Shown one piece after another: positions 3,801 through 19,870 of a DNA stretch of 64,000 nucleotides. The DNA comes from Candidatus Woesearchaeota archaeon (GTDB lineage Archaea; Nanobdellota; Nanobdellia; Woesearchaeales; ARS49). Within the stretch, counting starts at the first letter, position 1. Every line of letters begins with the position of its first letter. The translations under genes were made by a program, and so were the position numbers. The notes beneath the pieces are model-generated. The model did no database searches. It saw only the letters and a program-made list of their open reading frames with translations, and was not told the origin of the DNA. Where the stretch lies: contig JAWADY010000002.1 in NCBI GenBank assembly GCA_038891615.1, forward strand, positions 64,994 to 128,993, in the 5' to 3' direction.

Positions 3801-6355
3801 ATGGGCATGTTGCGCTAAGAGTTACAGCAGAGGATTATGCCGGAAATACAATGGCTTCTGTGCTAAACTTTATTATTGACTCAACAGGCCCGGTCATTTC
3901 TCTGGCACAACCACTATTCGGAATTTCTGACAAGACACCATTTGACATTGTCGTTGAAACAGACCAGCCAGCTATCTGCAGATATTCAACAATTCAAAAT
4001 GTTGACACTGCGAGCATAAGCTATGATGCAATGGCAAAGTTCTACATACCTGAAAAACAAACCGCACAGCACATCATACAAGGCTTTGACGAGCTCACAG
4101 GAAAGCCAGAAAACACGCCCTGGAGGTTCTATGTTGTTTGCAAGGATGGCAAGCAACGCCAGTCTAACGAAACCTTCTGGCTGTCCGTTGATTCTGCTCC
4201 TCCAAAAATAACAGCTGCTTATGCAGAACCAAATCCAATCGTTGAGTACACAGACAGTGAGCTGCTAACAACACTGAAAGTCTCAACAGAACGCAGCTCC
4301 TTCTGCAGTTACAGCACAACAACCACGAGCTTTAGCCCTGAAAATGGTTTTGAAGGGACAGGCATAACTCCAAGGCAAGCGCACAATGCTGTGGTTAAAA
4401 TAACCACTTCTCCGACAACTTATAACATCGCTTGCATTTCACCAACCGATTATGGCAAAGCTGCGCCAAGAACAGCAACAGCAACAATAAAAATCACTGT
4501 TGACGTTGCAGCACCACTAACCATTTCCTGCAGCTATTGCCCTTCATTCTGGAATTCTACCACAAAAAACATATACCTGACCACAAACAAGCGCGCGCAA
4601 TGCTTCTGGACACTTGACAAGACAACCACTTCTTTTGGTACAGTTGGATATGAGCACAGCACCACTCTGAAAGTGCCATCTCTTGGCGAGAAAAAAGTGC
4701 TCTTTAGCTGCAATGCAGGCGCCCAAAGTGCAACCCTTGAGTATTCATTTCTTGTAGACAACAGCCCTCCTGTAATGCTCTATGTTAGTGATAACTCAAG
4801 CCTTAAAGAAGATACAGAGCATAGCTATTTCACAGATAGGTTAAGGGCAGCATGGCTCGGGCAGGATAATGAAAGTGGAATAACACGGTATTATTACTCT
4901 TTAATCGAAAAGGCAAACAACGCTGTTGTGATAAATTGTTCACCTGGCTCTCAACAAAACAATTGCCGATTCTCAACAGTACTTGATGGAAATTTCTTTG
5001 ACATTACGCAGGACCATAATGGAAAGTCGCTCAATTTAACAGACGGCTTTAGTTATTTCTTGAAGGTTTGGCCCCTAAATAGGGTTGGTCTTCTTGGAAA
5101 TCCAATGGACTCGGATGGAGTTGTAATAAACAAAAGCAAAAAGCCAGCTCACTGCAGCGATGGAATAACAAATGAAGGCGAATCAGGGCAGGACTGTGGT
5201 GGAGAGTGCGAGCCTTGTCCTGATGGTCAGCCTTGTAGGTCTGATTCGGACTGTCTCTCAAAAACCTGTATAGAAGGTTCGTGCAAGGCTCCGAGCTGTA
5301 CAGATTTAAGAAAGAATGGTAATGAAAGCTCAATCGATTGTGGTGGGAGCTGTCCAACAAAGTGCGAAGCTGGTAAAAGTTGTAACACTGACAGCGATTG
5401 CAAAACAGGACTAAGCTGTATATCTGGTGCATGCGCAGAACCAACAGCTTGCGAGAATGGTATACTTGATGGGCTTGAAACAGACATTGACTGCGGAAGG
5501 GTTTGTCCAACAAAATGCGCAGCTGGAAAGGGCTGTCTTGATAATAAAGATTGCGCTGATGGGCTATATTGTGTTAGTGGTGTTTGTTCTTCAACAACTC
5601 CAACCGCTGATTCTGATGGTGATGGTGTCACTAATGATCTTGACCAGTGCCCAAACACTCCGAAAGGTGAAAAAGTAGATAAAAACGGTTGTTCAGCAAG
5701 CCAGCGTGACACCGATGGAGATGGCATGAATGATGCTTGGGAGATACGCTATGGCTTTGATCCTGAGAATCCTGCTGATGCTTATACAGATGTCGATGCT
5801 GATGGCCTTAGTAATCTTGAGGAATTCAAGTTAGGAACTGATCCAAGAAACCCAGATACTGATGGTGATGGTTGGAGTGATGGGGCTGAGTTCAAGGCAG
5901 GAACAGACCCTCTAGACCCTGCCTCAAAGCCATCCGCCCCTATTGTGAGAGCTTTGCCATGGCTGTTGCTTGTTGCAATCCTTGCCATAGCCGGTTACGC
6001 AGCTTACAAGTACAGGAAGCAAATTGCTGCAATTTTTGTAAGGAAAAAGGTAATTCCTTTGCCAAAGCCGCCTGTGGTGTGGAGACCGCCACCAAGGCCT
6101 GTCCAAAGAGTTGTGCGTGTTCCAACAAGAGCAGAGTTAATCATTGAACAGCTTAGAAAGATTGCCCGAGCTACAAAGGCTGAAGAAGAGGAATACATTC
6201 CTGTAGAAGAGCTTGCCAGAAGGGCAGCTGCGCTAGAGCCAACAGAAGAAGTACTTAAGCATCTAAAGGCAGCAGTAAGAAAAAGCCCTGAGTTTGCAAG
6301 GGCTGCAGCTGCCCAGCCAAAGCTCAGAGCGATGCTCAAGAAAAAATCAAAATGA
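875..6355 (+). CDS. Giant (1826 aa) membrane-anchored surface protein/adhesin with thrombospondin type-3-like Ca-binding repeats (DxDxDG), Cys-rich modules, a C-terminal TM helix and a roughly 130-aa charged cytoplasmic tail
   Basis: N-terminal hydrophobic signal/anchor (IGIFVVLFFVVIGIAVIA). Repeated DSDGDG(I/L/V)xD...WE..YGLNPNN motifs. Four roughly 43-aa 6-Cys modules (CxDGxxNGxExxxDCGGxCxxCxxGxxCxxDxDC...C..GxC). TM ALPWLLLVAILAIAGYAAY near the C-terminus, followed by a Pro-rich then helical K/E-rich tail. Confidence 0.8.
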   Translation: MLRKEVIGIFVVLFFVVIGIAVIAQEEKTGCCCDENGTAMDYSPFHTQNECTDPFTILVPLSSENISKYTPDNISKICIDACGGAAPKPLPLPLAPKITFFKAEPLMGQKKFLLTWEINQTPNVIYIDRCKGNDCTNFGNIATFAGTSRSYVDDDASLEWLTNYTYRLRIVNTITSPPQESSMTASSSLGDIECWNRFDKTPFCISEYYYWNEPIQSYLKNFGYFGFSFTDNFARQVRTVFGVTNLDHIGKLDSRCHVVGINRLSQSSSRCKSNETCLVVDSNTICITPSPCDTSFNATSASCENTPSGTPSYCFSDKSQSVIERCYSCDKRMSCYDYRSKEACERDACGIGDCIWKPTYGAIGVGVCINPSQNNCLLCDKKTGDLLSGLDSKKWPSLLAYNELFDACSQLKAEALGKCLAVTDPSTGKTSPKTCEQATCSDYKTQQECNADTCGLGICKWFDSPTFRGCAKDADTPPQAPATDSDGDGIPDWWEIKYGLNPNNRDDAGSDSDGDGLSNLDEWLRGTLPNNPDSDGDGVSDLNDNCPGTPSNTFQVDSNGCPLPVSDTTDSDDDGIPDWWERKYGLNPNNPADAGSDSDGDGLSNLDEWLRGTLPNNPDSDGDGVSDLNDQHPGTPSNTQVDSNGRPPQGNGKPDCIDPNTGEIDPACEADKWSPETVIIPVGDRGAVKYLYIQITDQFKSTGEKLTIAHSGTGTKAEYFPKGYSTFLCVGSLCSPNVRVNATPLTVVNGFLTINGKPLGLQLKDGSNILRFYSQDPANNNEQVKQLEVNACTGCQGPALITPIDIEGARIVNGEYYTKLTQPQIKLSFDAKAELVLKRLVFGNSFTELSSSPQSGFSQNYTLLPPELAEAKYVLQINARGENGISSSNTPYSFNLTIDKTPPLLSFNVEQNSILENPDQSFVLSFNEPVFVTSIFFDEEHVAQNGRKYVFTRNLTSELKQVNSSKYNLTVNGIPDGHVALRVTAEDYAGNTMASVLNFIIDSTGPVISLAQPLFGISDKTPFDIVVETDQPAICRYSTIQNVDTASISYDAMAKFYIPEKQTAQHIIQGFDELTGKPENTPWRFYVVCKDGKQRQSNETFWLSVDSAPPKITAAYAEPNPIVEYTDSELLTTLKVSTERSSFCSYSTTTTSFSPENGFEGTGITPRQAHNAVVKITTSPTTYNIACISPTDYGKAAPRTATATIKITVDVAAPLTISCSYCPSFWNSTTKNIYLTTNKRAQCFWTLDKTTTSFGTVGYEHSTTLKVPSLGEKKVLFSCNAGAQSATLEYSFLVDNSPPVMLYVSDNSSLKEDTEHSYFTDRLRAAWLGQDNESGITRYYYSLIEKANNAVVINCSPGSQQNNCRFSTVLDGNFFDITQDHNGKSLNLTDGFSYFLKVWPLNRVGLLGNPMDSDGVVINKSKKPAHCSDGITNEGESGQDCGGECEPCPDGQPCRSDSDCLSKTCIEGSCKAPSCTDLRKNGNESSIDCGGSCPTKCEAGKSCNTDSDCKTGLSCISGACAEPTACENGILDGLETDIDCGRVCPTKCAAGKGCLDNKDCADGLYCVSGVCSSTTPTADSDGDGVTNDLDQCPNTPKGEKVDKNGCSASQRDTDGDGMNDAWEIRYGFDPENPADAYTDVDADGLSNLEEFKLGTDPRNPDTDGDGWSDGAEFKAGTDPLDPASKPSAPIVRALPWLLLVAILAIAGYAAYKYRKQIAAIFVRKKVIPLPKPPVVWRPPPRPVQRVVRVPTRAELIIEQLRKIARATKAEEEEYIPVEELARRAAALEPTEEVLKHLKAAVRKSPEFARAAAAQPKLRAMLKKKSK
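2324..2830 (+). repeat. Near-perfect tandem duplication (2 x 258 bp) inside the giant surface-protein gene, encoding two almost identical 86-aa TSP3-like units
   Basis: DNA units starting at about 2324 and about 2582 are nearly identical (gattctgatggtgatggcttgagcaatttggatgaatggttgcgtggga... in both). The protein units differ at only a few residues. Confidence 0.85.
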
Positions 6356-6852
6356 GACTTGGCCAAATAGTTGGGCAAATATTTCTTTTCTTGTTGGCAA
6401 CAATTGTTTTTGTTTTTATAGTTGTTTATGGCTATCGCGCAATAGGCAACCTTGTTGCAAAAGGTGAGCAAGCAGACCTAGTGCGATTCAACAGCGAGCT
6501 CAGTTCCGCAGTTAGTGCTATATCCCTTGACTATGGCAGCGTGCGTTGCCTAGAGCTCAGCCTTCCAAAAAGATATAGAACCTTTTGTTTTGTCGGGCAG
6601 GAGCCTGACATAGGCGCACTTTCCTTGGTCAGCCCATTAATTGCAAGTGCTGTCCAGTCAGGGATTAAGCAAAATGTTTTTTTAATCCCCCCTTCACCGC
6701 TTCAACTATATCTAGAAAAGGCAACGACAAAAGCAGAGGGAGGATTTTTTTGCATAAATACAAGCGGACCAACAAATCGCTTGCTACTCAGGCTTGAAGG
6801 TGGCGCAGGAGGAATTGCAGAGCTACAAAAATGGCAAGGAGCAAGCTGTTAA
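6352..6852 (+). CDS. Pilin-like protein with class III (type IV pilin-type) signal peptide
   Basis: N-terminus MRLG|QIVGQIFLFLLATIVFVFIVVYG: short basic segment, G at -1, Q at +1, then a roughly 20-aa hydrophobic helix. Lies directly downstream of the giant gene. Confidence 0.55.
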   Translation: MRLGQIVGQIFLFLLATIVFVFIVVYGYRAIGNLVAKGEQADLVRFNSELSSAVSAISLDYGSVRCLELSLPKRYRTFCFVGQEPDIGALSLVSPLIASAVQSGIKQNVFLIPPSPLQLYLEKATTKAEGGFFCINTSGPTNRLLLRLEGGAGGIAELQKWQGASC

Positions 6853-7820
6853 TTCCAAAGCACAGAAAAGGCCAGATAGAAGCGCCAGTAAGTTGGATAT
6901 TCATACTTATTGCAGGAGCTGTAATCCTTCTTTTTTTCTTTTCAACAACCATTAAGTTGCGTGACATTGCAAAACAAAAGCTTTCAATAACCCTTTTGTC
7001 AAACTTAGATGCACTCATCTCTAGCTCATCCGTTGCAAAAGGTACAAGCCAGCTGCTGCCGATTTATGACCAGCAACTTGTTTTTGAATGTACACAGGCT
7101 TGTCTTTGCGAGCTTTCAGTCCTTGGCGCAAAAAAGCCATTTAAAGACAGGCTGATTTTTGCTCAGCAAAAGGTTTTTGGAAGAAATGCGCTATTTTGGG
7201 CTCTTGACTGGAAGGAGCCATTCAGGATTGCTAATTTTCTTTACATAACAGACAGCTCAAGCAAATATTGGTTGGTTGGGGATTCGAGCAGCGAACCACT
7301 TAAGACAATAAAGTTCCTCCTTCCTAAGAATCTTAGTGCGGAGTTCGTAGACTCCACCCAAAACATCAAGCCAGGAAATTTCAAGAAAAGCAGGATTGTT
7401 CTTTTTGACAAAGCACTGGATGAAAGCCTTGCAGATAGTTTTCCCAAAGCATCTGAGCTAACATTACTTGTTGTCAACACCCAGAACAAAGAGCTTAAGT
7501 GGTACAAGAGAAAAGGTAGCAAGCTGGAAGTGCTGTCAAATGAAGGGGCGGATAACTACAAAAGCATTCCCCATCTTTTGGGAGCAATTTTTAGTGACGA
7601 GCCGCAGCTTTACGCCTGCCAACAAGCAGCTTCTGAGGACAGGAAAGCGGCCATAAAAGAAATCTATGTTGCACGTGTGCAAAAATTGATGCAAATTGTG
7701 CCAGAAGAACGTGGTTGCAGCGCGCTTTACGAAGAGACGTTCAAAAACATTAACGCTCCTGAGGCGCTTGAGGAGATTAATGAGGAATTGCTAAAAAAGA
7801 GTTGTCCAACAATATACTAA
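6831..7820 (+). CDS. Pilin-like protein with class III signal peptide (329 aa)
   Basis: N-terminus ...KHRKG|QIEAPVSWIFILIAGAVILLFFF. Overlaps the upstream gene by 22 nt. Confidence 0.55.
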   Translation: MARSKLLIPKHRKGQIEAPVSWIFILIAGAVILLFFFSTTIKLRDIAKQKLSITLLSNLDALISSSSVAKGTSQLLPIYDQQLVFECTQACLCELSVLGAKKPFKDRLIFAQQKVFGRNALFWALDWKEPFRIANFLYITDSSSKYWLVGDSSSEPLKTIKFLLPKNLSAEFVDSTQNIKPGNFKKSRIVLFDKALDESLADSFPKASELTLLVVNTQNKELKWYKRKGSKLEVLSNEGADNYKSIPHLLGAIFSDEPQLYACQQAASEDRKAAIKEIYVARVQKLMQIVPEERGCSALYEETFKNINAPEALEEINEELLKKSCPTIY

Positions 7821-7821
7821 A

Positions 7822-8352
7822 ATGGCAAACAATGCATCTCCAAGCAAAAAGGCTCAGATAAAGATGTTTGAGAATATCGCTGTCCTCGTGATATTCTTTT
7901 TTCTTCTGGCTTTTGGTACAAGCTTTTACTTTACACTTCAAAAAAGTTCCCTTCAGCGTGAAATGGAACGCATTGCGCAGCTTGGAAACATTCAGCAGGC
8001 GCTTAGGCTTACATTCTTACCAGAGCTTGACTGCTCATTTGCTGCTGTACAAACTGAAAATTGTTTTGACAGGCTTAAGTTTGATGCTCTTGCAGATCAG
8101 CTTAAACCAGGTAGCCAGCGATGGCTTGAGTACTCTGCAATCCTTGGTTTTACTAGTATAAAACTAAAGACTGTTTATTCCAGCCTCTCTCCCCCGCCTG
8201 AAGAGAAACTTCTGTACGAAAGAAAGCTGAACGCAACTGCAATTCGCACAGAGATTCCTGTCTTGATTTGTGAAAACGGTTGCGACCCGCTAAATCAAAG
8301 CTATTCCTTCGGCATCCTTGAGGTGACAAGCTATGTTAGAAGGGCAACCTGA
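7822..8352 (+). CDS. Pilin-like protein with class III signal peptide (176 aa)
   Basis: N-terminus ...SKKA|QIKMFENIAVLVIFFFLLAFG. Start lies 2 nt after the upstream stop. Confidence 0.55.
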   Translation: MANNASPSKKAQIKMFENIAVLVIFFFLLAFGTSFYFTLQKSSLQREMERIAQLGNIQQALRLTFLPELDCSFAAVQTENCFDRLKFDALADQLKPGSQRWLEYSAILGFTSIKLKTVYSSLSPPPEEKLLYERKLNATAIRTEIPVLICENGCDPLNQSYSFGILEVTSYVRRAT

Positions 8353-8854
8353 TGGCATTGCTGTGTTGAAGGGATTAAAGAGAGCAAAAGGCGGGCAAAT
8401 GGAAATAATTGGTCTAACAATCATCATTCTTCTTGTTATAATTGGGGTGCTTTTTGGAATACAGTTTGTGCTCAAGGCAAAGCCGCCCACAATTGGACGA
8501 GAGTTTAGGGAATCGCAGTACGCAGCCAACTTCCTAAGCACTCTTACAGGTACAACAAGCGCATGTAATGGTTTGAGCATCACACAACTTTTACAGAACT
8601 GCGTGACAAGGACAGGGATTGACTGTCCATCAGGAAAGGGTGCTTGTGAGGAGGTTGAGGCTCTTATAGAAACAATCCTTGATAAAACAATTGGCAAGTC
8701 GGGACAAAACAGAGCATACCAACTTATGGTAAAAGGCAGCAACATTGACATTACTAAGTCTAATCGGGGAGGATGTCCGGGCGAAAAAGAGGTTGCAGAA
8801 CACACACTTCCAACAAGAGCTGGAGTAGTTTCTATACGCCTCGAGTTGTGCTAA
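8333..8854 (+). CDS. Pilin-like protein with class III signal peptide (173 aa)
   Basis: GAGGTGA Shine-Dalgarno 8 nt upstream of the ATG. N-terminus ...KRAKGG|QMEIIGLTIIILLVIIGVLFG. C-terminal part has 4 Cys. Confidence 0.5.
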   Translation: MLEGQPDGIAVLKGLKRAKGGQMEIIGLTIIILLVIIGVLFGIQFVLKAKPPTIGREFRESQYAANFLSTLTGTTSACNGLSITQLLQNCVTRTGIDCPSGKGACEEVEALIETILDKTIGKSGQNRAYQLMVKGSNIDITKSNRGGCPGEKEVAEHTLPTRAGVVSIRLELC

Positions 8855-10827: not shown

Positions 10828-10878
10828 CTCTTTTTTTTAAATTTATGCAAAAATTCTTTAAAAATTTTCCGAACAGCG

Positions 10879-12493: not shown

Positions 12494-12501
12494 TTTAAAT
12501 A
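12494..12501 (+). promoter_or_regulatory. Candidate TATA box (tttaaata) for the pilin-like gene cluster, about 43 nt upstream of ATG 12544, with GAGGTG Shine-Dalgarno at 12533-12538
   Basis: Archaeal TATA-like octamer at an appropriate distance from a short leader carrying a Shine-Dalgarno site. Confidence 0.3.
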
Positions 12502-12543: not shown

Positions 12544-12798
12544 ATGTCAAAAGGTCAAGGCATTTCAATTAATGTTATCATAATAGCTGCGATTGCACTG
12601 CTTGTTCTTGTTGTTCTTTCTGTTATGTTCATAGGCAGGATAGGACTCTTTGGAGTTAAGAGTGTTTCTTGCACAGAACAGGGAGGAACATGTTCTGTTG
12701 ATGTCTGCCCAGCAGGGACAAGGGAGTACACACCTTGGAGGTGCCCTGATACTCCTGAGGGGGCAAAGCAGCGCTGCTGCGTGGCAATAGGGGTGTAA
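12544..12798 (+). CDS. Small Cys-rich pilin-like protein (84 aa), class III signal peptide
   Basis: MSKGQG|ISINVIIIAAIALLVLVVLSVMFIG. C-terminal 45 aa contain 7 Cys. Paralogous to the next two genes. Confidence 0.65.
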   Translation: MSKGQGISINVIIIAAIALLVLVVLSVMFIGRIGLFGVKSVSCTEQGGTCSVDVCPAGTREYTPWRCPDTPEGAKQRCCVAIGV

Positions 12799-12809
12799 GT
12801 GAATTTTCA

Positions 12810-13079
12810 ATGGCAAAAGCGCAAGGGCTGCCAATAAACACAATCATTATCGTTGCGCTAGCACTTGTTGTTCTTTTAGTCATTGCAGCCATTTTTACTG
12901 GTCGTATACAGCTTTTTGGAAGAGCGCTAAGCAACTGCCCAAAAGGAGAGGGGAAGTGGTGCACAGACAACCCTTCGGATTGCGCAGCTGGCAACGCAGC
13001 AGCAAGTCCGCTAAAAAATTGCAACGAAGATGCTGACCCTGAACCAGAAGGGAGCTATTGTTGCATACCATTGGCATGA
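12810..13079 (+). CDS. Small Cys-rich pilin-like protein (89 aa), paralog of 12544
   Basis: MAKAQG|LPINTIIIVALALVVLLVIAAIFTG. The N-terminal 30 aa are almost identical to the upstream gene. C-terminal Cys-rich segment. Confidence 0.65.
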   Translation: MAKAQGLPINTIIIVALALVVLLVIAAIFTGRIQLFGRALSNCPKGEGKWCTDNPSDCAAGNAAASPLKNCNEDADPEPEGSYCCIPLA

Positions 13080-13366
13080 GAATGGGCAAAATGAGCGGAA
13101 AAAAGGGTGCTGAAGCCATTTGGTACATAATCGCGCTTGTCATTGGGCTAATAGTTCTTGTTGTGCTGGTAGCATTATTTACAGGAAAGGTAAAGCTGTT
13201 TGGCAAGGCAGGAGAAGAAATCGAAAAAGGTGTTCGTGGAAATCTTTGTTTTGAGCAGGGTTTTTGTGAAGCGGGCACTGCTTGTCCTCCTGGTTCAACA
13301 GCAATCCCGCGCCCTGCTGCTGGCTGGACAGATTGCACAGGGATTTGTTGCAAGCAAGTTGGATAA
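13076..13366 (+). CDS. Small Cys-rich pilin-like protein (about 96 aa), paralog
   Basis: ATG overlaps the upstream TGA (cATGA). MRMGKMSGKKG|AEAIWYIIALVIGLIVLVVLVALFTG. C-terminal Cys-rich. Confidence 0.6.
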   Translation: MRMGKMSGKKGAEAIWYIIALVIGLIVLVVLVALFTGKVKLFGKAGEEIEKGVRGNLCFEQGFCEAGTACPPGSTAIPRPAAGWTDCTGICCKQVG

Positions 13367-13508
13367 AGTTTTTATACGCAAGAGCCACTTGATTTTTTAT
13401 GCACAAAAGAGGCGTTGAAAAAAGCACTTTGTTATACCTCATCCTAATCCTTATCTTTCTTGCGCTTGCAGCCTATATTCTTGTGAGAATTGCTGGGAGG
13501 ATTTTTGG

Positions 13509-14225
13509 ATGAGCCTGCTCATTGTCAGAAGGAAGGGAATAACAGAAACAGGATTAGTGGCAATAATCCTTGTCCTTGCCTCTGGCATTGTTCTTGGAGC
13601 TCTTGTCTATCAGTTTACTGTTAAGGGGAAGCAGGTTGGCTCTATCGAGCTTTGCAGACAGAATGTGCTAACTGCTAGCAAAGTTGTAGCGCTTGGCAAA
13701 GCAGATATTTGGCCAATCACCAACTGCTTTACAGAAGACCTTGGCAAACTTCCAGAAAAAGAAGAAGAAGCCATTACTCTGATTGCCGAGGGTATTAGGA
13801 AGTGCTGGTACATGTGGGGCGAAGGAAAGCTAACTCCATGGAGCTCTACATGGCTATCAAGAAACATCATGTGTCATGTTTGTACGATGTTTGAGCCAAG
13901 CGCAGAAGTGAGTATTGAAAAGCTTCATGGTTGGATGAGGACTCACAACATTCCTGGCAAAGAATTAACCTACTATGACTTTTTGAAAGAAGGCTACATC
14001 CCTTTCATCTATCCAGCACTTGAAGAAGAAGCCAAAGCCAAAAAAGTTGACCTCACAAAAGGAATGAAATGGGCTGTCTTTTATGCCTATGGAACGCGCG
14101 CGGATTGGCTAAGATTTCCCCTCATTGGTGGACTTGTGCTTGAAGAACCAAAACAAGGCGTTGCCTTCCTGCCGACAAATGAACTCGGAGGCATATGTAC
14201 ATATACTACGATAAAACTCAAATGA
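13509..14225 (+). CDS. Pilin-like protein (238 aa) with class III signal peptide and a Cys-containing globular domain
   Basis: MSLLIVRRKG|ITETGLVAIILVLASGIVLGALVY. Shares CW..WGEGKL...CHVC motifs with the next gene, so the two are paralogs. Confidence 0.6.
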   Translation: MSLLIVRRKGITETGLVAIILVLASGIVLGALVYQFTVKGKQVGSIELCRQNVLTASKVVALGKADIWPITNCFTEDLGKLPEKEEEAITLIAEGIRKCWYMWGEGKLTPWSSTWLSRNIMCHVCTMFEPSAEVSIEKLHGWMRTHNIPGKELTYYDFLKEGYIPFIYPALEEEAKAKKVDLTKGMKWAVFYAYGTRADWLRFPLIGGLVLEEPKQGVAFLPTNELGGICTYTTIKLK

Positions 14226-15145
14226 AAAGGGCGCAAGTAACAACACAGACACTCTTGGTAGTGCTCGTGCTTTTACTCGTAGCAGCTGTCATCTTTATTT
14301 CTTTTCAGACAAGACTCTTTGGCTTAGCAGAAGCCAAAAGTGCAAAGGATGTTTGCAAAACTTCTGTCTATGCCAATGCGCTGCTTGGAAGAAGTGTTGG
14401 AATCTTTTCTTCGGATATAAAATGTCCAACTCAGTATCTTCAGATAGACAATAGTGATGTTGCACATGCAAAGTTTGAGATTGCAAAAGCTCTGTCAGAT
14501 TGTTGGGAACAATTTGGAGAAGGCAGGCTTGAGCTTTTTTCTGGAGAAGGTGTTTTTTGTTCCGTATGTCATTTGATAACTTTTAAGCACAAAGAAAAAG
14601 CAATAAGCGGGCTTTTAGACTATCTTGCAACTAACAAAAAACCCCTTACTGACAAAAGCTATCTTGATTATCTAACAAGCTATCACACTTCAGGAAGCGA
14701 GGTTCTTAAGGCATATGCAGCTGAAAAGCTCCCGCCTGACATTCTTGACCCATCGCGAGGCAACACCTATGCAACAATCTTCTACTATGTCAAGGGTAAA
14801 GACCATGTGAAGGATGTTATTGAAAGAGCCCAAGCAGCAGCACCTGGCATTGGGCTTGAAGCACTTGGTATCGGATTGATAAAGGCAGGCAGTGCAACAG
14901 CTGGCTTGATTTCAGCAACCGGCATTGGTGCGCCTCTAGGTGTAGTTGTTGCAAAGGTCTCAACAATTGTCGGCGGAGTTTTGATTGTTGGCGGAGCAGG
15001 CTATGCCCTCCTCGCTGGTTGGTTCGGCGGAGTCCCTGTAGAATTCCTCTCACAAGTACGCCTCGAGCCTTACAACGAGCAAACGCTTAAAAACCTCGGA
15101 TGCCAAATCCTGCCTGCAGCTGAAAAAGCAGAGGTTGGAAGGTGA
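14222..15145 (+). CDS. Pilin-like protein (about 307 aa), paralog of 13509, with a C-terminal Gly/Ala-rich hydrophobic segment
   Basis: Start ATG overlaps the upstream stop (aATGA). MKRA|QVTTQTLLVVLVLLLVAAVIFISF. Motifs CWEQFGEGRL / CSVCHL match the upstream paralog. Confidence 0.6.
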   Translation: MKRAQVTTQTLLVVLVLLLVAAVIFISFQTRLFGLAEAKSAKDVCKTSVYANALLGRSVGIFSSDIKCPTQYLQIDNSDVAHAKFEIAKALSDCWEQFGEGRLELFSGEGVFCSVCHLITFKHKEKAISGLLDYLATNKKPLTDKSYLDYLTSYHTSGSEVLKAYAAEKLPPDILDPSRGNTYATIFYYVKGKDHVKDVIERAQAAAPGIGLEALGIGLIKAGSATAGLISATGIGAPLGVVVAKVSTIVGGVLIVGGAGYALLAGWFGGVPVEFLSQVRLEPYNEQTLKNLGCQILPAAEKAEVGR

Positions 15146-15279
15146 TGAAAAAAGGCATATCCCGCGAGGCATTTGTTTACATACTCTTGGCACTTATTGC
15201 AATCCTCATTGGAGTAATCTTGATAATTTTTTGGGGAGGCGGGGCAGAAAAGGTCCTTAAGTCTCTTGGTTTGGGATAG
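15145..15279 (+). CDS. Mini pilin-like protein (44 aa), essentially only a class III signal peptide plus TM helix
   Basis: Absent from the ORF track (<60 aa). TGATG overlap with the upstream stop. MKKG|ISREAFVYILLALIAILIGVILIIFWGGG. Confidence 0.4.
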   Translation: MKKGISREAFVYILLALIAILIGVILIIFWGGGAEKVLKSLGLG

Positions 15280-15284
15280 CTCAA

Positions 15285-15641
15285 ATGGACAAAAAAGCTG
15301 TTGCAATAGAAACAATAGTCATCCTTCTCCTTGCACTTGTTGCTCTCCTTTTCTTTACAGTCCTTGGAGGAAAGCAGCTTCAATTGGGCAAGAAAATAAG
15401 CTTTTTCATGCCGGGCTGCCCAAAGGGTGTTTTAATAACCACAGAATGTCCATGTGATGGCCAAAAGATAAGTTCAGGTTATTGCTGTGATTTTGGACCA
15501 AGCCAAAAGCCTTGCTTTTGCGTAGAGCGAAATGTTAATAAGTGCGAGGATTACAAAAAGCAAGAGGATTGTGTAAGCAATCCTTGCCAAGTTCAAACTG
15601 CTTGCACCTTTGAACAAGGTGTTTGCAAAAGGGCTGGTTAA
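15285..15641 (+). CDS. Pilin-like protein (118 aa) with an extremely Cys-rich C-terminal domain
   Basis: MDKKA|VAIETIVILLLALVALLFFTVLGG. 16 Cys in the last 80 aa (CPKG...CPCDG...YCCDFG...CFCVERN...). Confidence 0.6.
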   Translation: MDKKAVAIETIVILLLALVALLFFTVLGGKQLQLGKKISFFMPGCPKGVLITTECPCDGQKISSGYCCDFGPSQKPCFCVERNVNKCEDYKKQEDCVSNPCQVQTACTFEQGVCKRAG

Positions 15642-15645
15642 ATAA

Positions 15646-16071
15646 ATGGCAAAAAAAGGGGTAAGTGGAATACAGGTCGTCATAGCACTTTTGATTGGCA
15701 TCATAGTGCTCTATGTTGTTGTGGCTTTTATGCAAGCACAGTTCAAGAAGGCTGGAAAGAGTATCGAGGAAATAACTCCTTCCACAATCAGCTTTGCGCT
15801 GCAAGGCTGCAGGCTCCAAGCCGCACGAGGTTTTTCTGATGCAGATAAGGATGGATATCCCGACTTTTGTGATGTCTGCGAAGGCGGTGATGACGGAAAG
15901 CACAGCGATGCTGACTGGGTTCCAGATGATTGTGATGCGCATGAAAAAACAAAAGGGCTTCCTGCAAAGGAATGTGGTTGTGAAAAGCCAGAAATGGATT
16001 CTGAAGGCAGGCTGATAAAGAGCTGTGGGAGGCTTCTTTCAATCGAGCCATTTAAGTGCGCGAAAAAATGA
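15646..16071 (+). CDS. Pilin-like protein (141 aa) with Asp/Cys-rich (Ca-binding-like) C-terminal domain
   Basis: MAKKG|VSGIQVVIALLIGIIVLYVVVAF. C-terminus: DADKDGYPDFCDVCEGGDDGKHSDADWVPDDCD. Confidence 0.6.
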   Translation: MAKKGVSGIQVVIALLIGIIVLYVVVAFMQAQFKKAGKSIEEITPSTISFALQGCRLQAARGFSDADKDGYPDFCDVCEGGDDGKHSDADWVPDDCDAHEKTKGLPAKECGCEKPEMDSEGRLIKSCGRLLSIEPFKCAKK

Positions 16072-16088
16072 ATTTGGTAAAATGAAAA

Positions 16089-16949
16089 ATGAGCAAAAGG
16101 AAAGGCCAGGAAGAAGTTGGAAGGATGCTTTGGGAACTTGTTGCGCTGATACTGGCAGTAACTGTTATCATTGGAGGGATATTGTTTTTTGGAAGGGCAT
16201 TTGGATTTATTGGTGAGAGCAAAGAGGAACAGGACACAATCTCAAGCTTTTACAGCCTTGCAACAAAACTAAACGAACTGGCGCTGCTTTCAGAGTCATT
16301 CGTTCATGACAGGCTACCACTTTTTATTGGGGAAGGATTTGTAATTGTTGGCTTTGACAAAGCTGGAGATATTTCTGTCAATGGTTGCAGCGATGAAACA
16401 CATCTTGGAGTTCCAGCTACTGACCTCATCCCAAAGCCAGAGTTCTGTGGCGAGTTTGCTTGCATATGCCTCTATTCTGGCATTAGCGAAGAAGTCGGCG
16501 AGAAGCAGCCAATTTCTTGTGCCAAAATTTTCGCTGACAGATTGATTGGCTTGAGTAGTGCGTATCTTGAAAAAAACTATCCCTCTTTTGAGTCTTTTTG
16601 GAAAAACGCAATGGGCTCTCGTAGGGATAAGCCAGAACTACAAAGGTTCATGGTAACAGGGACAGAGCCTTTTAGCACTCTTCTCGAAAAAGACTATCCT
16701 CTTTTCCCAAGCTTTGAAAGCTACCCCTATACCTATTTTGTTCTTCATGGTGAGTGTGAAAACTGGTGGTTTGATGCCAACTTTGGCACACAAAGCCTCT
16801 ATCTTGAAAAAGTGAGGATAAAAGACAGGAACTATTTATTTATCACCGCAGACATCGAGGACTTTGTAAACAAAAGGGTTGCTGCAATAAAGGATTGGCT
16901 AGAGAAGCAAAAGAGTCAAGAGAAAGCCGAGGGAGGGCTGGTTGGTTGA
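16089..16949 (+). CDS. Pilin-like protein (286 aa)
   Basis: MSKRKG|QEEVGRMLWELVALILAVTVIIGGILFFG. Basic N-terminus, Q at +1, a single N-terminal hydrophobic helix. Confidence 0.55.
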   Translation: MSKRKGQEEVGRMLWELVALILAVTVIIGGILFFGRAFGFIGESKEEQDTISSFYSLATKLNELALLSESFVHDRLPLFIGEGFVIVGFDKAGDISVNGCSDETHLGVPATDLIPKPEFCGEFACICLYSGISEEVGEKQPISCAKIFADRLIGLSSAYLEKNYPSFESFWKNAMGSRRDKPELQRFMVTGTEPFSTLLEKDYPLFPSFESYPYTYFVLHGECENWWFDANFGTQSLYLEKVRIKDRNYLFITADIEDFVNKRVAAIKDWLEKQKSQEKAEGGLVG

Positions 16950-17784
16950 AATGGTTGTGATTGGCAAGCGAGCCGTTGTTCATCCAGTTGCTCTGACAAT
17001 TGCAGAGCTTATTTTAGCCGCAATTATTGTCCTTGCAATGTACAATTTTGCCTCAAGGGCAAGAGAGCCTGGAAGGCTTGAAAAAGAGTTTGTTGCAAAA
17101 GACCTTGGCTTGCTGCTTGACGCCGTTTCCGTTGGCCAAGGGAGTTACTATTTGGTTTACACATCACCAGCCCTTCATCAAGATTTCAAGATTTCTGCAG
17201 GCGCCCACGAGGTTGTTGTTGATGGCTCAAGGCAGCCCTACGCATCTGGGCGTATAGAAATAAAAGGAGATTCCTTTGGAACAGATAAACTTGTGATCTG
17301 GTCTGAAACTGGAATTCTTGGCACGCCTTCAGCAGTCAAAGGTCACCTGCTACAGCTTCCTTGCGAAAGCCCACTGTCTTTTTCAACTGATAGGCAGCTT
17401 GCGGTAGCTGCTGATGATGGTGCCAAACAACTTGTTGAAAGACTTTTTGTCAAGGACTTAGGGAAAAGGCTGTTGTCAAATGATGAGAAAGGCGCAAGTG
17501 CGCTATTAAAAATTTTCACAGGAACAAAAAATGGGACAGCGAAGGCATATTTTTGGAAGGATGATAAGTCAGCAAGGTCGCTTGCATGCGCCCTTTTGAA
17601 CAGCATTGTCGCTTTTGAAGGAACCAATTCAGCCCTTCTTCTTCCGCTTAATCCTGAGCTTGCACCAAAGCGTTTTGCAGAGCTTGAGAAACAAAAGCCA
17701 GCTGTCTTCCTCGAGCTAGGCCCAGACCTTATTTCAAGCCCTGAACTTGCTCAGGCACTTTATGGTGGTGTTCGAAGTGGCTGA
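16942..17784 (+). CDS. Pilin-like protein (280 aa)
   Basis: ...VIGKRA|VVHPVALTIAELILAAIIVLAMYNF. Overlaps the upstream gene by 8 nt. Confidence 0.5.
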   Translation: MVEMVVIGKRAVVHPVALTIAELILAAIIVLAMYNFASRAREPGRLEKEFVAKDLGLLLDAVSVGQGSYYLVYTSPALHQDFKISAGAHEVVVDGSRQPYASGRIEIKGDSFGTDKLVIWSETGILGTPSAVKGHLLQLPCESPLSFSTDRQLAVAADDGAKQLVERLFVKDLGKRLLSNDEKGASALLKIFTGTKNGTAKAYFWKDDKSARSLACALLNSIVAFEGTNSALLLPLNPELAPKRFAELEKQKPAVFLELGPDLISSPELAQALYGGVRSG

Positions 17785-18325
17785 AAGGCAACAAGCAAAC
17801 ATTTTTAGCAAAAAGGCTCAACTCCTTAGCCATCACACAAAATTTCTTTTCATAAGCCTTCCATTTGTTATTATCTCCGCTCTTGCGTTGTTTCTTCTCG
17901 CAAACAGGTTTCTTGAAATAAGAGTAAATACCTTTCCCCTCGAGGCAAACGCATTTGTTGAAAGCATACTCTACTCATCTGCTGGGCTGGCTTATGTTGA
18001 CAATGTAACCGGGATTACCTATTCTGGAATCATAGACATCACAAAACTTGAAGAAAAGGACATTGGAAAAAGGTTGTCTAAGGCTTTTAACTATGGTGAA
18101 GGGCAAAGTTACCTTGCAGCAAAGCTTCTGATTGGTGATAGGACAATTTTCTATAACAACGAACCAGAAGCACCTTGGTATGACCGCTGGAAACCAAAGG
18201 TTGGGCTCAAGGGTGCTGGCGGAGTGCAATCGGTTACTTTTGTTAAATATGTGCTCATCAAAAATGGAAGTATGTTAGAACCTGCAACCGTTTACATAGA
18301 GTTGCTCAAGCCTGGTGAGGGCTAA
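17747..18325 (+). CDS. Pilin-like protein (about 180-190 aa); start codon uncertain, possibly an internal GTG
   Basis: ...FSKKA|QLLSHHTKFLFISLPFVIISALALFLLAN. The single N-terminal hydrophobic helix follows a KKA|Q motif. No in-frame ATG after the upstream stop, so a non-ATG start is likely. Confidence 0.45.
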   Translation: MLRHFMVVFEVAERQQANIFSKKAQLLSHHTKFLFISLPFVIISALALFLLANRFLEIRVNTFPLEANAFVESILYSSAGLAYVDNVTGITYSGIIDITKLEEKDIGKRLSKAFNYGEGQSYLAAKLLIGDRTIFYNNEPEAPWYDRWKPKVGLKGAGGVQSVTFVKYVLIKNGSMLEPATVYIELLKPGEG

Positions 18326-18900
18326 TGGTAATAAATGGAAGAAAAGGCGTTGTTGGGGAGCTATTAGTTGCATTTCTCTCTTTTGCAGGCCTTGCTCTTA
18401 CAATCCTACTCTTCACTTTCATATTCTCTCCAGCAGACTTTCCTGGTCCTCAAACTTTGACCGTGCTTAATGAAGGAGAAACAGATGGCAAACTTAGACT
18501 GCTGACCATTCTTCGCTCACCAGTTGTTTTTGATGGGGAGAAAATAGATTTTGCAGACATGATTGCACTTTGGCAAGGAAAGCAAGAGCCGCTCGAAAGC
18601 ATTCTTCACTCAGAGCTTGAAAAGCTGCTTAATAACAAGCTAAGTTATGAGTTCGAGCATGCTGGTGTCAAATTTGTGCGCACTTATGCTTTTGCCATTT
18701 ATAGCATAAAAGACGATTTAAGTCGTGGCAAAGAACTAATGAAAGTAGAGGCAAGCGGCTATTCAGGAGGTAAAGAAATAGCCTCAACTCATGTTGCATT
18801 AAAGGATGGCAATGTGCTTGAGGTTGTGCTATTTTCAAGCGCGCAAAAAAAGCCATCCAAAACTCCTGTTTCGAGCGCTTCATCCATACCTATAAAATAA
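18325..18900 (+). CDS. Pilin-like protein (191 aa)
   Basis: MVINGRKG|VVGELLVAFLSFAGLALTILLFTFIF. Start overlaps the upstream stop. Confidence 0.5.
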   Translation: MVINGRKGVVGELLVAFLSFAGLALTILLFTFIFSPADFPGPQTLTVLNEGETDGKLRLLTILRSPVVFDGEKIDFADMIALWQGKQEPLESILHSELEKLLNNKLSYEFEHAGVKFVRTYAFAIYSIKDDLSRGKELMKVEASGYSGGKEIASTHVALKDGNVLEVVLFSSAQKKPSKTPVSSASSIPIK

Positions 18901-18901
18901 A

Positions 18902-19870
18902 ATGGTCAAATCAAACAAACGCGCAACAATCTTTTTTGAACCACTAATACTTTTGGGGTTAATCGTTGCTCTTAGCATCGCAGCTATTTCTGTTAGCCAA
19001 AAAAGGTCCTCTTTTGGAACAATTGGCAGACCAGCTGCTGACCTTCTTAATTACAATGACTTTGGTGAAGAACTTCTTTTTAAGGTTGAACAAGCAGCGA
19101 GGTTTGCAGTTCGCGATGCGCTTTATGAGTTGGGTGCAAATGGTTGGAGTGCTGAAGGTCCAAACTTAGGTTGTGATAGCCAGCCAATTGGCAAGCCTTT
19201 GCTTATCGAGAGCTTTCCTACACCACAGGAGATTGTTGAAGAACTAACAAAAATTTCTGATAGGAAGCTTAGGGCTTATTCGCTCAGGGCTTCGCAGCTC
19301 CTTGGTCTTGGGAGGTTGGGCTTCCACTTGCCAACAGGTATTGAATATGAGTGGTTTGTTGAGCACTCTGGTGGGCTGTTGAGAGTGAGTGGCATTGCTG
19401 ACAAGCCAGTTACCTTCTCATTTAGCTCATACGAGGTAGGTAAACCAACACTCTACGGCCAGCCGCTGCCACTGCCAACTGCTTCAGTTGTTTTTATTCC
19501 TCTTGAACGTCCAAAACAGCCAGAAGCCCTGCTCTTGCTTTATGGCAATTATTCGATAAGGCCGTCCTTCACAGTCTGGATAGATTACGACCTTTTCGGC
19601 GTCTATGAAAGAATAAAAGAAGGCGTTGAGCAACTCAAAACAATCATTCAGGAAAACAGGGCTCTTGGTTTTGAGGTGACAGACCTGGCGCTCAAAAACA
19701 AAGTCAAGGAGCTGAATTCTGCGCAGGGAGAGCTTGTTTGGCAAGTCCCTAAGAGGACAAGTGAAGATCCGGCTATCTACTCTTTTGTTATTTCTCATAA
19801 GAAGCAGCTTTTAGGATGCAGTCAGCCTATTCAAATAAGGTTTGCGATGAGAATTCCATTAGCTGCTTGA
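18902..19870 (+). CDS. Pilin-like protein (322 aa)
   Basis: MVKSNKRA|TIFFEPLILLGLIVALSIAAISV. Lies 1 nt after the upstream stop. Confidence 0.5.
   Translation: MVKSNKRATIFFEPLILLGLIVALSIAAISVSQKRSSFGTIGRPAADLLNYNDFGEELLFKVEQAARFAVRDALYELGANGWSAEGPNLGCDSQPIGKPLLIESFPTPQEIVEELTKISDRKLRAYSLRASQLLGLGRLGFHLPTGIEYEWFVEHSGGLLRVSGIADKPVTFSFSSYEVGKPTLYGQPLPLPTASVVFIPLERPKQPEALLLLYGNYSIRPSFTVWIDYDLFGVYERIKEGVEQLKTIIQENRALGFEVTDLALKNKVKELNSAQGELVWQVPKRTSEDPAIYSFVISHKKQLLGCSQPIQIRFAMRIPLAA

What the first reader, a model, noticed from the sequence alone, without database searches (positions are those of the whole stretch)
15285..16071. Pilin-like proteins with hyper-Cys-rich and Asp/Cys-rich (Ca-binding-like) heads
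The 118-aa product has 16 Cys in 80 residues. The next (141 aa) has a DADKDGYPDFCDVCEGGDDGKHSDADWVPDDCD segment resembling Ca-binding loops. Together with the three small Cys-rich pilin paralogs at 12544-13366, this points to disulfide- or metal-stabilised pilus tip or minor subunits. That chemistry fits an extracellular, possibly host-interaction role.
Basis: seen in the sequence. Interest (0 to 1): 0.5.

Follow-up and report, generated by a model that had tools for sequence, protein, structure and literature searches.

The report
Cysteine-knotted pilin-like proteins, Woesearchaeota
Two small genes of an uncultured DPANN archaeon encode pilin-like proteins whose exposed heads are tiny, probably disulfide-knotted domains (one also has a calcium-site-like acidic motif). 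They belong to a conserved gene cluster for a type IV pilus-like surface filament, so they are an unusual variant of a known kind of protein.

Summary
Both ORFs are real genes: the annotated frame scores best of six, they sit in a tight operon, and both have orthologs. The Cys count is 12, not 16. The 141-aa protein has 8 Cys and the quoted Asp-rich segment.

Both belong to a + strand run of 14 genes (12544-19870). Each gene starts with a short basic leader ending in [KR][GA], followed by a hydrophobic helix of at least 18 aa. Four more such genes lie at 6352-8854.

The same gene order occurs in six other Woesearchaeales/Nanoarchaeia loci. In one, a FlaI/TadA-like ATPase and its polytopic membrane partner lie directly upstream of the run.

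The 118-aa family always has 12 Cys, and 10 of its 15 invariant columns are Cys. Its head has two modules. One recurs six times in a bacterial beta-helix protein, the other twice in the neighbouring 1826-aa surface protein.

The 141-aa family keeps its Cys scaffold. Five of seven members keep a DxDxDxxxDFCDxC motif like a thrombospondin type 3 repeat. No TSP3, pilin or other curated profile matches either protein.

Structure prediction failed for both heads. Pilus assembly, disulfides, Ca binding and a host-contact role remain inferences. I rate this a new variant of a known kind, of moderate interest.

The parts
15285..15641 (+). Gene for the 118-aa pilin-like protein. It has the leader MDKKA, a hydrophobic helix at about residues 6-29, and a 12-Cys head.
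   Evidence: ORF; Cys positions; best coding frame of six; orthologs P0003-P0007 at 39-44% identity, E 5e-19 to 1e-12; alignment A7 with 10 invariant Cys columns; AF2 gives a confident helix at residues 3-28 only.
15417..15515 (+). Head module 1 of the 118-aa protein (C45-C77, 6 Cys, core ECPCxGxxIxSGYCCxxGPSxxPC).
   Evidence: Invariant C45, C55, C57, G65, Y66, C67, C68, S73, C77. Six tandem copies occur in the bacterial protein P0008, ahead of a Beta_helix domain (domain E 2.5e-9 to 1.3e-7).
15519..15626 (+). Head module 2 of the 118-aa protein (C79-C114, 6 Cys, core KCxDYxxxxxCxxxxC....C).
   Evidence: C79, C87, Y90, C96 and C114 are invariant. Two similar segments occur in the neighbouring giant protein at aa 331-356 and 438-461. 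Only the second reaches a low domain E-value (4.5e-5); the stretch holding the first scores 0.13. tblastn also links giant aa 288-359 to the L011 ortholog, E 4e-4.
15646..16071 (+). Gene for the 141-aa pilin-like protein. It has the leader MAKKG, a hydrophobic helix, and an 8-Cys, Asp-rich head.
   Evidence: ORF; codon score 0.194, within the range of known genes; seven-member family with invariant C55, C75, C78, C96, C110, C127, C138.
15838..15936 (+). Acidic segment at residues 65-97: DxDxDGxxDxxDxC, then GGxD, then SDxDxxxDxCD.
   Evidence: Regex match; found in 1 of 200,000 shuffles; DxDxDxxxDFCDxC kept in 5 of 7 family members, with a 1-aa insertion in one and lost in one; BLASTP to the TSP3 region of the giant protein, E 0.003; no profile-level match.
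12544..19870 (+). Run of 14 tightly packed pilin-like genes that contains the two genes of the finding. Starts and ends: 12544-12798, 12810-13079, 13091-13366, 13399-13512, 13509-14225, 14222-15145, 15145-15279, 15285-15641, 15646-16071, 16089-16949, 16951-17784, 17762-18325, 18325-18900, 18902-19870.
   Evidence: Gaps range from a 23-nt overlap to 32 nt. Every product has [KR][GA] plus a hydrophobic stretch. All score well for coding. The gene order is conserved in L006, L007, L011, L012, L013 and L014.
12494..12501 (+). TTTAAATA, an archaeal TATA-box-like element 43 nt before the first ATG of the run. GAGGTG lies about 6 nt before that ATG.
   Evidence: Sequence. TTTAWATA occurs 13 times in the window against 5.2 expected, and none lies inside 12544-19870 on the + strand. 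That it acts as a promoter is inferred.
6352..8854 (+). Second run of four pilin-like genes (166, 329, 176 and 173 aa), just downstream of the giant surface protein.
   Evidence: N-termini; orthologs in L007 and L012.
875..6355 (+). 1826-aa Cys-rich surface protein (78 Cys) with TSP3 repeats. It shares module 2 and the acidic motif type with the two pilin-like heads.
   Evidence: Pfam TSP3_bac 8e-21, TSP_3, Big_13; NCBIfam Amuc_1099 pilus-like family 3.6e-16, above its cutoff; module 2 copies.
40483..42780 (-). FlaI/TadA-like secretion ATPase, the candidate assembly motor.
   Evidence: Pfam T2SSE 1.5e-12; NCBIfam TadA-family 1e-31 and FlaI 7e-31, both below equivalog cutoffs. The 70%-identical ortholog lies next to the pilin run in L011.
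38265..40454 (-). 729-aa polytopic membrane protein paired with the ATPase, the candidate TadC/FlaJ-type platform.
   Evidence: About 7-8 hydrophobic segments. The 61%-identical ortholog lies between the ATPase and the pilin run in L011. There is no T2SSF or PDB match, so its identity rests on context only.
26554..27249 (+). Membrane-anchored CPRC protein, a possible thioredoxin-like oxidoreductase. No link to the run was shown.
   Evidence: N-terminal hydrophobic segment, CPRC and TFPT motifs. Hits are weak: Pfam TraF 1e-3, HyaE 3e-3, Thioredoxin_2 0.17; PDB thioredoxin 0.085. It abuts the GT2 gene 25300-26553 and is absent from L007, L011 and L012.

Best explanation
The two ORFs are genes 8 and 9 of a 14-gene operon of type IV pilin-like proteins, conserved in a clade of Woesearchaeales (DPANN) archaea. 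A FlaI/TadA-type ATPase and its membrane partner probably serve this operon.

Proposed mechanism:
1. Each product is inserted into the membrane by its N-terminal hydrophobic helix.
2. A prepilin peptidase trims it after the [KR][GA] dipeptide (inferred).
3. It is incorporated through that helix into a pilus-like filament as a low-copy (minor) subunit (inferred).

In place of the usual globular pilin domain, each protein exposes a very small head held together by disulfides.
- The 118-aa protein would have six disulfides in about 70 residues, in two cystine-rich modules. These modules also occur in other extracellular proteins.
- The 141-aa protein would have four disulfides plus one thrombospondin-type-3-like acidic loop pair that probably chelates Ca2+.

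The heads would give the filament rigid, protease- and heat-resistant binding surfaces. They may act together with the TSP3-repeat giant protein encoded at the head of the locus.

Shown here: the genes are real, the families and their Cys scaffolds are conserved, the N-terminal pattern is shared, and the locus synteny includes ATPase adjacency in a relative.

Inferred: signal cleavage, filament assembly, disulfide formation, Ca binding, minor-subunit status and an adhesion role.
For: Coding:
- The annotated frame is the best of six for both genes.
- Spacing is operon-like, with one TATA-like box ahead of the run.

Families:
- The 118-aa family has 8 full-length members at 35-42% identity in alignment A7, with 10 invariant Cys columns. 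All seven loci have exactly 12 Cys.
- The 141-aa family has 7 members with 7 invariant Cys.

Pilin-like N-termini:
- 16 of 17 pilin-like genes pass the rule, against 1 of 49 controls. The rule holds in all related loci.
- The only PDB hits that align to the leader plus helix are an archaellin (5o4u, E 0.2) and geopilin (E 0.036-1.3). These are not significant.

Machinery:
- The ATPase matches T2SSE, FlaI and TadA models.
- The ATPase and membrane partner lie immediately upstream of the pilin run in L011.

Disulfides:
- Cys counts are even in 14 of 14 Cys-containing pilin-like proteins (P = 6e-5 at p = 0.5, or 0.003 at the window's own background rate).
- CxC and CC spacings dominate rather than paired CxxC with His.

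Ca-like motif.

Shared modules with extracellular proteins.

Literature:
- DPANN islands of unrecognisable pilins next to FlaI/TadC have been predicted (PMC6393860).
- Cys-rich T4P components are noted in Thermoproteales (PMC4858521).
- One disulfide is seen in the solved Pyrobaculum pilin (PMC7347861).
Against: - No curated pilin, archaellin or class III signal model hits any of 69 locus proteins.
- A profile of 63 N-termini gives only non-significant PDB hits, mixed with generic transmembrane helices.
- No prepilin peptidase gene was found among the window ORFs scanned against Pfam. That covers most but not all ORFs of at least 100 aa.
- The membrane partner of the ATPase has no T2SSF or PDB match.
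- In the window itself the ATPase pair lies 18 kb away on the other strand.
- AF2 models of both heads are of low confidence (pLDDT 64 and 50). No fold or disulfide map is available.
- The acidic motif is lost in one ortholog (P0012) and fails every profile test.
- No expression data were available. All copies of the window's own locus are identical in DNA.
Confidence: 0.6

Rival explanations
1. The proteins are signal-anchored surface proteins. The N-terminal helix is an uncleaved membrane anchor, and the Cys-rich heads decorate the cell envelope without being polymerised into a filament.
For: No pilin profile matches. No prepilin peptidase gene was found in the window. Hydrophobic stretches of 20-25 aa are also what a plain membrane anchor looks like.
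Against: A [KR][GA] dipeptide sits immediately before the helix in 16 of 17 window genes and in every gene scored in the related loci. A plain anchor has no need for that. There are 14-18 such genes in an operon. The ATPase and membrane-partner pair is adjacent in L011. Two 'mini' members of 37 and 44 aa are little more than the helix, which makes sense for filament or assembly components but not for displayed domains.
Confidence: 0.2
2. The cysteine clusters bind metal (Zn, Fe or Cu) rather than forming disulfides, as in a redox-active or metal-scavenging surface protein.
For: The 141-aa family has a conserved CxxC (FCDxC) and a CC/CGC pair. AF2 could not place any disulfides.
Against: The predicted location is extracytoplasmic. 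Counts are strictly even and Cys columns are invariant. The 118-aa head has CxC and CC spacings, only one CxxC, and no conserved His. The same module occurs in tandem in a secreted bacterial beta-helix protein.
Confidence: 0.1
3. The small Cys-rich products are exported effectors, such as defensin-like or toxin-like mini-proteins. A type IV filament-like machine would release or present them, acting as a secretion pseudopilus rather than an adhesive pilus.
For: The small paralogs of the same operon have a beta-defensin-like 6-Cys spacing. Four of 69 locus proteins give weak Defensin_beta hits, with a best E of 9e-4. Heads are tiny and knotted, like many secreted effectors. DPANN archaea must interact with a host envelope (established knowledge).
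Against: The Defensin_beta scores are below the Pfam cutoff and cover only part of the model. All products keep the long hydrophobic helix that would hold them in a membrane or a filament core. No toxin or immunity genes were seen in the locus.
Confidence: 0.07
4. The ORFs are not genes, and the Cys-rich stretches are frame artefacts.
For: The codon score of the 118-aa ORF is low (0.026). There are no hits in the word-indexed protein search apart from the protein itself.
Against: The frame is still the best of six. Full-length orthologs at 35-44% identity keep the Cys columns in syntenic positions in six other loci.
Confidence: 0.01

Closest known systems
Archaeal type IV pilins with solved filament structures (Pyrobaculum arsenaticum, Saccharolobus solfataricus; PMC7347861)
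   Same: A short basic leader ending in G/A, a long hydrophobic N-terminal helix, and a genomic link to a FlaI/TadA-type ATPase. The Pyrobaculum pilin is stabilised by an intramolecular disulfide.
   Different: In the solved pilins the helix carries a beta-strand globular C-terminal domain with no or one disulfide. Here the whole head is about 70-105 residues with 12 or 8 Cys. No pilin profile matches, and no fold could be predicted.
DPANN 'dark matter' pilin islands predicted by Makarova, Wolf and Koonin (PMC6393860), and the archaeal T4P census (PMC4858521)
   Same: Islands of unrecognisable signal-peptide proteins next to FlaI/TadC-type genes and large surface proteins in DPANN genomes, interpreted as diverse pilins. 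Multiple conserved cysteines are noted in T4P components of Thermoproteales.
   Different: The passages I read (term searches only) do not describe these particular families, their 12-Cys and TSP3-like heads, their module sharing or their synteny. The census could not identify cognate pilins for nanoarchaeal ATPases.
Modular type IV pilins of Streptococcus sanguinis (PilB; PMC8179133)
   Same: The concept is the same: a minor pilin carries a functional module, also found in non-pilin proteins, that gives the filament an adhesive property (abstract seen).
   Different: From my own knowledge, in S. sanguinis the module is grafted onto a complete pilin domain. Here the module(s) appear to replace the globular domain altogether. 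There is also no sequence relationship.
Thrombospondin type 3 / bacterial TSP3 Ca-binding repeats (Pfam TSP_3, TSP3_bac)
   Same: The 141-aa head has DxDxDGxxDxxDxC followed by a second Asp-rich stretch ending in CD. The neighbouring giant protein has bona fide TSP3_bac repeats.
   Different: There is a single unit, not an array. The Gly of the motif is Lys in most orthologs, and the second loop is shorter. No member reaches any TSP3 profile, and the score against an HMM of the neighbour's repeats is no better than shuffles.

Membership tests
Archaeal type IV pilin-like proteins (class III signal peptide) | Short positively charged leader ending in [KR][GA], directly followed by a hydrophobic helix of about 20 aa | tested here: met
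   118 aa: MDKKA|VAIETIVILLLALVALLFF. 141 aa: MAKKG|VSGIQVVIALLIGIIVLYVVV. 16 of 17 pilin-like genes pass the rule against 1 of 49 controls. It holds in every gene the scan scored in six related loci.
Archaeal type IV pilin-like proteins (class III signal peptide) | Match to a curated pilin, archaellin or class III signal profile | tested here: not met
   No such Pfam or NCBIfam family at E<=10 for the two proteins, or among the 25 most-matched of 38 families found at E<=0.1 for 69 locus proteins. A profile of 63 N-termini against PDB gives only non-significant hits: geopilin 0.036 and archaellin 0.75.
Archaeal type IV pilin-like proteins (class III signal peptide) | Genomic association with a FlaI/PilB/TadA-type ATPase and a TadC/FlaJ-type platform | tested here: inconclusive
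   The ATPase criterion is met: T2SSE 1.5e-12, FlaI and TadA about 1e-31, and adjacency to the run in L011. The paired 729-aa polytopic protein has no T2SSF or PDB match.
Archaeal type IV pilin-like proteins (class III signal peptide) | Processing by a prepilin peptidase (PibD/FlaK/EppA type) | not testable with these tools
   No Peptidase_A24-like gene among the window ORFs scanned.
Archaeal type IV pilin-like proteins (class III signal peptide) | Polymerisation into a helical filament | not testable with these tools
   This needs microscopy or biochemistry.
Thrombospondin type 3 / TSP3_bac Ca-binding repeat | DxDxDGxxDxxDxC acidic loop motif | tested here: met
   Residues 65-78 of the 141-aa protein match. 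The motif appears in 1 of 200,000 shuffles. The Asp and Cys positions are kept in 5 of 7 members, while the Gly is kept only in the window's protein.
Thrombospondin type 3 / TSP3_bac Ca-binding repeat | Significant match to the family profile | tested here: not met
   No TSP_3, TSP3_bac or other Ca-binding family at E<=10 in any of 7 members. The HMM of the giant protein's 10 repeats scores the window protein at 1.1 bits, within the shuffles. There is no thrombospondin or COMP hit in PDB.
Thrombospondin type 3 / TSP3_bac Ca-binding repeat | Ca2+ coordination by the Asp side chains | not testable with these tools
   The AF2 model has pLDDT below 50 across residues 32-105.
Thioredoxin-fold thiol-disulfide oxidoreductase (for the proposed partner, 26554-27249) | CxxC active site, cis-Pro loop and thioredoxin-fold profile match | tested here: inconclusive
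   CPRC and TFPT are present after an N-terminal membrane segment. All profile hits are below their cutoffs: TraF 1e-3, HyaE 3e-3, Thioredoxin_2 0.17, PDB thioredoxin 0.085. No linkage to the pilin run was found in L007, L011 or L012.
Beta-defensin (for the small 6-Cys paralogs the finding mentions) | Score above the Pfam Defensin_beta gathering threshold | tested here: not met
   17.4 bits against a cutoff of 21, covering 21 of the 36 model positions. The best E among four orthologs is 9e-4. I treat this as a resemblance in Cys spacing only.

The most novel reading that the evidence does not exclude
This Woesearchaeales locus may build a structurally new class of type IV filament. In it, the usual globular pilin domain would be replaced throughout by cystine-knotted mini-domains: 6-Cys defensin-like major subunits, a 12-Cys two-module subunit, a Ca-loop subunit, and helix-only 'mini-pilins'. 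The knotted heads would act directly on a host envelope, either as adhesive or as membrane-active parts, rather than merely stabilising the fibre.
Probability: 0.15. Interest if true: 0.7.

Novelty: new variant of a known kind. Interest (0 to 1): 0.4.

Why it matters
DPANN archaea are thought to live attached to hosts, yet their surface appendages are almost uncharacterised. Their pilins also escape all standard annotation models.

This locus gives a concrete, conserved set of 14-18 candidate filament genes. It has clear sequence signatures: the [KR][GA] leader, fixed Cys scaffolds and one Ca-loop-like motif. These can be used to find related systems and to design antibodies, recombinant heads or proteomic targets.

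If the heads are confirmed, they would be the most disulfide-dense pilin domains described that I know of. They would also show extracellular modules being shared between pilins and giant adhesin-like proteins.

The practical consequence is modest. This is an annotation and hypothesis gain, not a new principle.

Tried and rejected
1. The word-indexed homolog search with each protein found only the protein itself. The exhaustive HMMER search was needed to find relatives.

2. The copies of the window's own locus in other samples (L001-L005) are essentially identical in DNA, with one mismatch in L003. No synonymous/non-synonymous test was possible.

3. AlphaFold2 failed on both heads. The 118-aa protein as a single sequence gave pLDDT 64, with only the N-terminal helix confident. 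The 141-aa protein with a 5-sequence alignment gave pLDDT 50. No fold search was therefore run.

4. Pfam and NCBIfam scans of the two proteins, and Pfam scans of their orthologs and of 69 locus proteins, gave nothing relevant.

5. PDB sequence and profile searches with both proteins, both family alignments, the N-terminal profile and the membrane partner gave nothing significant.

6. An HMM built from the giant protein's TSP3 repeats did not score the 141-aa family above shuffles. I therefore do not file the protein as a TSP3 family member.

7. The first alignment was too divergent for the locus scan. A trimmed alignment worked.

8. P0010 from the exhaustive search is a low-complexity repeat protein and was discarded.

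9. I considered the antisense ORFs 15535-15942 and 15788-16051 as alternatives. I rejected them on codon score and on conservation of the + strand products.

10. The bacterial promoter/terminator scanner was not used because the organism is archaeal.
Full report
**Observation**

ORFs 15285-15641 (118 aa) and 15646-16071 (141 aa) are on the + strand as described.

The 118-aa product has 12 cysteines, not 16. They lie at residues 45, 55, 57, 67, 68, 77, 79, 87, 96, 101, 107 and 114. The other ORFs of the window average 1.05% Cys, so 12 in 118 has a binomial tail of 5e-9.

The 141-aa product has 8 Cys. The quoted Asp-rich segment lies at residues 65-97.

**Are they genes?**

A codon-usage log-likelihood was trained on 19 Pfam-confirmed genes of the window. 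It ranks the annotated frame first of six for both ORFs, at 0.026 and 0.194. The training genes score 0.18-0.37. The lower value for the 118-aa ORF probably reflects its load of rare Cys codons (my inference). The overlapping antisense ORFs score negative.

The genes are separated from their neighbours by 4-17 nt.

NCBI calls both products hypothetical proteins of a Candidatus Woesearchaeota MAG. The same DNA occurs, essentially unchanged, in several assemblies, so within-population variation gave no information.

An exhaustive HMMER search of 1.84 billion representatives found five full-length relatives of the 118-aa protein. They are 103-113 aa long, 39-44% identical, with E-values from 5e-19 to 1e-12. 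It also found a fragment and one bacterial multi-repeat protein.

A profile search found four relatives of the 141-aa protein. Two more were read from related loci.

The 'frame artefact' refutation condition is therefore not met.

**Context**

The two genes lie inside a run of 14 + strand genes, 12544-19870. Spacing ranges from a 23-nt overlap to a 32-nt gap.

Every product begins with a short basic leader ending in [KR][GA], followed within a few residues by a hydrophobic stretch of at least 18 residues. A second run of four such genes (6352-8854) follows an 1826-aa, 78-Cys surface protein with TSP3_bac repeats.

Using one explicit rule, 16 of 17 pilin-like genes pass, against 1 of 49 other ORFs of the window.

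A TTTAAATA element lies 43 nt before the first ATG of the run. None lies inside the run on that strand. TTTAWATA is enriched in the window, at 13 hits against 5.2 expected. This fits a single transcription unit.

The window also encodes a FlaI/TadA-like ATPase at 40483-42780 on the - strand. It matches T2SSE at 1.5e-12 and FlaI and TadA models at about 1e-31. Next to it is a 729-aa polytopic membrane protein with no family match.

**Synteny**

Six further loci show the same gene order.
- L007/L010 comes from a groundwater Woesearchaeota MAG.
- L011 comes from a Nanoarchaeia MAG.
- L012, L013, L014 and L006 come from metagenomes.

The tblastn table shows that the pilin-like proteins are 25-60% identical between loci, while RadA is 72-75% identical.

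In L011 the ATPase (70% identical) and the membrane partner (61% identical) lie immediately upstream of the pilin run. This is the strongest evidence tying the run to a type IV filament machine.

A scan of all loci shows the same N-terminal rule in each gene it scored, with fixed Cys numbers per family:
- 12 in the 118-aa family, in all seven loci;
- 6 in the small paralogs;
- 8 or 10 in the 141-aa family;
- 6 each in the two 230-310-aa families.

In the window, all 14 pilin-like proteins that contain Cys have an even number, against 24 of 36 other ORFs (P values).

**The 118-aa head**

In an 8-sequence alignment, 10 of the 15 invariant columns are Cys. The core reads ECPCxGxxIxSGYCCxxGPSxxPC, then KCxDYxxxxxC.

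The head splits into two modules.
- Module 1 (C45-C77, 6 Cys) occurs six times in tandem ahead of a right-handed beta-helix domain. The protein carrying it is on a contig with sigma-54 activator and FHA-domain neighbours, which I read as bacterial.
- Module 2 (C79-C114) resembles two segments of the neighbouring giant protein, SCYDYRSKEACERDACGIGDCIW and TCSDYKTQQECNADTCGLGICKW. Only the second reaches a low domain E-value, 4.5e-5.

Neither module has a Pfam, NCBIfam or PDB match.

**The 141-aa head**

Seven of its eight Cys columns are invariant in seven sequences.

Residues 65-78 match DxDxDGxxDxxDxC. That motif arises in 1 of 200,000 composition-preserving shuffles. Five of seven members keep DxDxDxxxDFCDxC, one has a 1-residue insertion, and one (P0012, L011) has lost the acidic residues while keeping the Cys scaffold.

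BLASTP aligns the segment with the TSP3 region of the giant protein at E 0.003.

Profile-level tests all fail.
- No member hits TSP_3, TSP3_bac or any Ca-binding family.
- An HMM of the giant's repeats scores the protein no better than shuffles.
- PDB profile searches find no thrombospondin.

The Ca-binding reading is therefore a motif-level inference. It is likely for most members but not universal in the family.

**Structure**

AlphaFold2 gave a confident N-terminal helix (residues 3-28) but a poor head for the 118-aa protein, with pLDDT 64. For the 141-aa protein, a 5-sequence alignment gave pLDDT 50. No fold comparison was justified.

**Interpretation**

The best-supported reading is that these are type IV pilin-like subunits of a DPANN filament system. 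In this reading a membrane-inserted helix is trimmed after [KR][GA] and packed into a filament core. It exposes a minimal head cross-linked by six or four disulfides, respectively. One head also carries a thrombospondin-type acidic loop.

I infer minor-subunit status from two points. Each gene is single-copy. The tandem small 6-Cys paralogs at the start of the operon include the best-conserved member (p84, about 60% identical), so they are better candidates for the major subunit.

Cleavage, assembly, disulfides, Ca binding and any adhesion or host role are inferred, not shown.

The main rival is uncleaved signal-anchored surface proteins. Metal-binding Cys clusters and exported effector peptides are less likely.

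**Comparison with the literature**

- Makarova et al. described DPANN islands of unrecognisable signal-peptide proteins next to FlaI/TadC genes, and proposed that they are diverse pilins (PMC6393860).
- They noted multiple conserved cysteines in T4P components of Thermoproteales, but could not find cognate pilins for nanoarchaeal ATPases (PMC4858521).
- The solved Pyrobaculum pilin has one disulfide (PMC7347861).
- My literature searches found no description of these families.

The kind of system is therefore known. The head architecture, the two families, their module sharing and the conserved 14-gene order are new details.

**The proposed oxidoreductase partner**

The CPRC protein (26554-27249) has an N-terminal membrane segment, a CPRC motif and a TFPT loop. 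It gives only sub-threshold thioredoxin-like hits. It directly follows a GT2 glycosyltransferase gene. It was not found in the flanks of three related loci. It remains a candidate without evidence of partnership.

**Verdict**

This is a new variant of a known kind, of moderate interest.

Noticed in passing
window 13399-13512 and 15145-15279 (+): Two 'mini-pilin' ORFs of 37 and 44 aa consist of little more than the [KR]G leader and the hydrophobic helix. Both are conserved in position in several related loci (the 44-aa one in all six).
   Followed up: partly
window 12544-12798, 12810-13079, 13091-13366 (+): Three small pilin-like paralogs each have exactly 6 Cys in a beta-defensin-like spacing (C-x7-C-x4-C-x10-C-x10-CC in the first). 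Four of 69 locus proteins give sub-threshold Pfam Defensin_beta hits, with a best E of 9e-4. A fourth copy lies between the 118- and 141-family genes in all six related loci but is missing from the window.
   Followed up: partly
window 875-6355 (+): This 1826-aa protein has 78 Cys, TSP3_bac repeats and a Big_13 domain. It scores above cutoff for the NCBIfam 'Amuc_1099 family pilus-like system protein'. It also carries two copies of the C-x-DY Cys module found in the 118-aa head, and it heads the locus in L007 and L012 too.
   Followed up: partly
window 8857-12393: A Ser/Thr protein kinase (-), an AbrB/MazE plus PhoU-domain protein (-) and an AsnC/Lrp regulator (+) sit between the two pilin runs. 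They keep the same order in L007 and L012, which suggests dedicated regulation of the locus.
   Followed up: no
window 16089-16949 (+); L007 11022-13013, L011 9047-10783, L013 7091-8947: The 286-aa pilin-like protein of the window is 578-663 aa in relatives. The longer forms add a C-terminal part that ends in a Cys-rich stretch. Pfam TPR hits in two locus proteins probably fall in these long forms (not checked). The window's version looks like a shortened form.
   Followed up: no
window 56876-56959 (+): Rfam's tRNA model finds a tRNA here (57.7 bits) that ARAGORN does not report. It overlaps the start of the predicted thymidylate kinase ORF at 56915.
   Followed up: no
window 50075-51385 and 51432-52739 (-): Two adjacent class II aspartyl/asparaginyl/lysyl-type tRNA synthetase paralogs (tRNA-synt_2 plus an OB fold) lie in tandem.
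   Followed up: no
L015 5001-7109 (P0008): A 702-aa protein has six tandem copies of the 6-Cys module 1 followed by a right-handed beta-helix domain. Its contig carries sigma-54 activator and FHA-domain neighbours, so it is probably bacterial. Module 1 is therefore an undescribed extracellular repeat present in both domains of life.
   Followed up: partly
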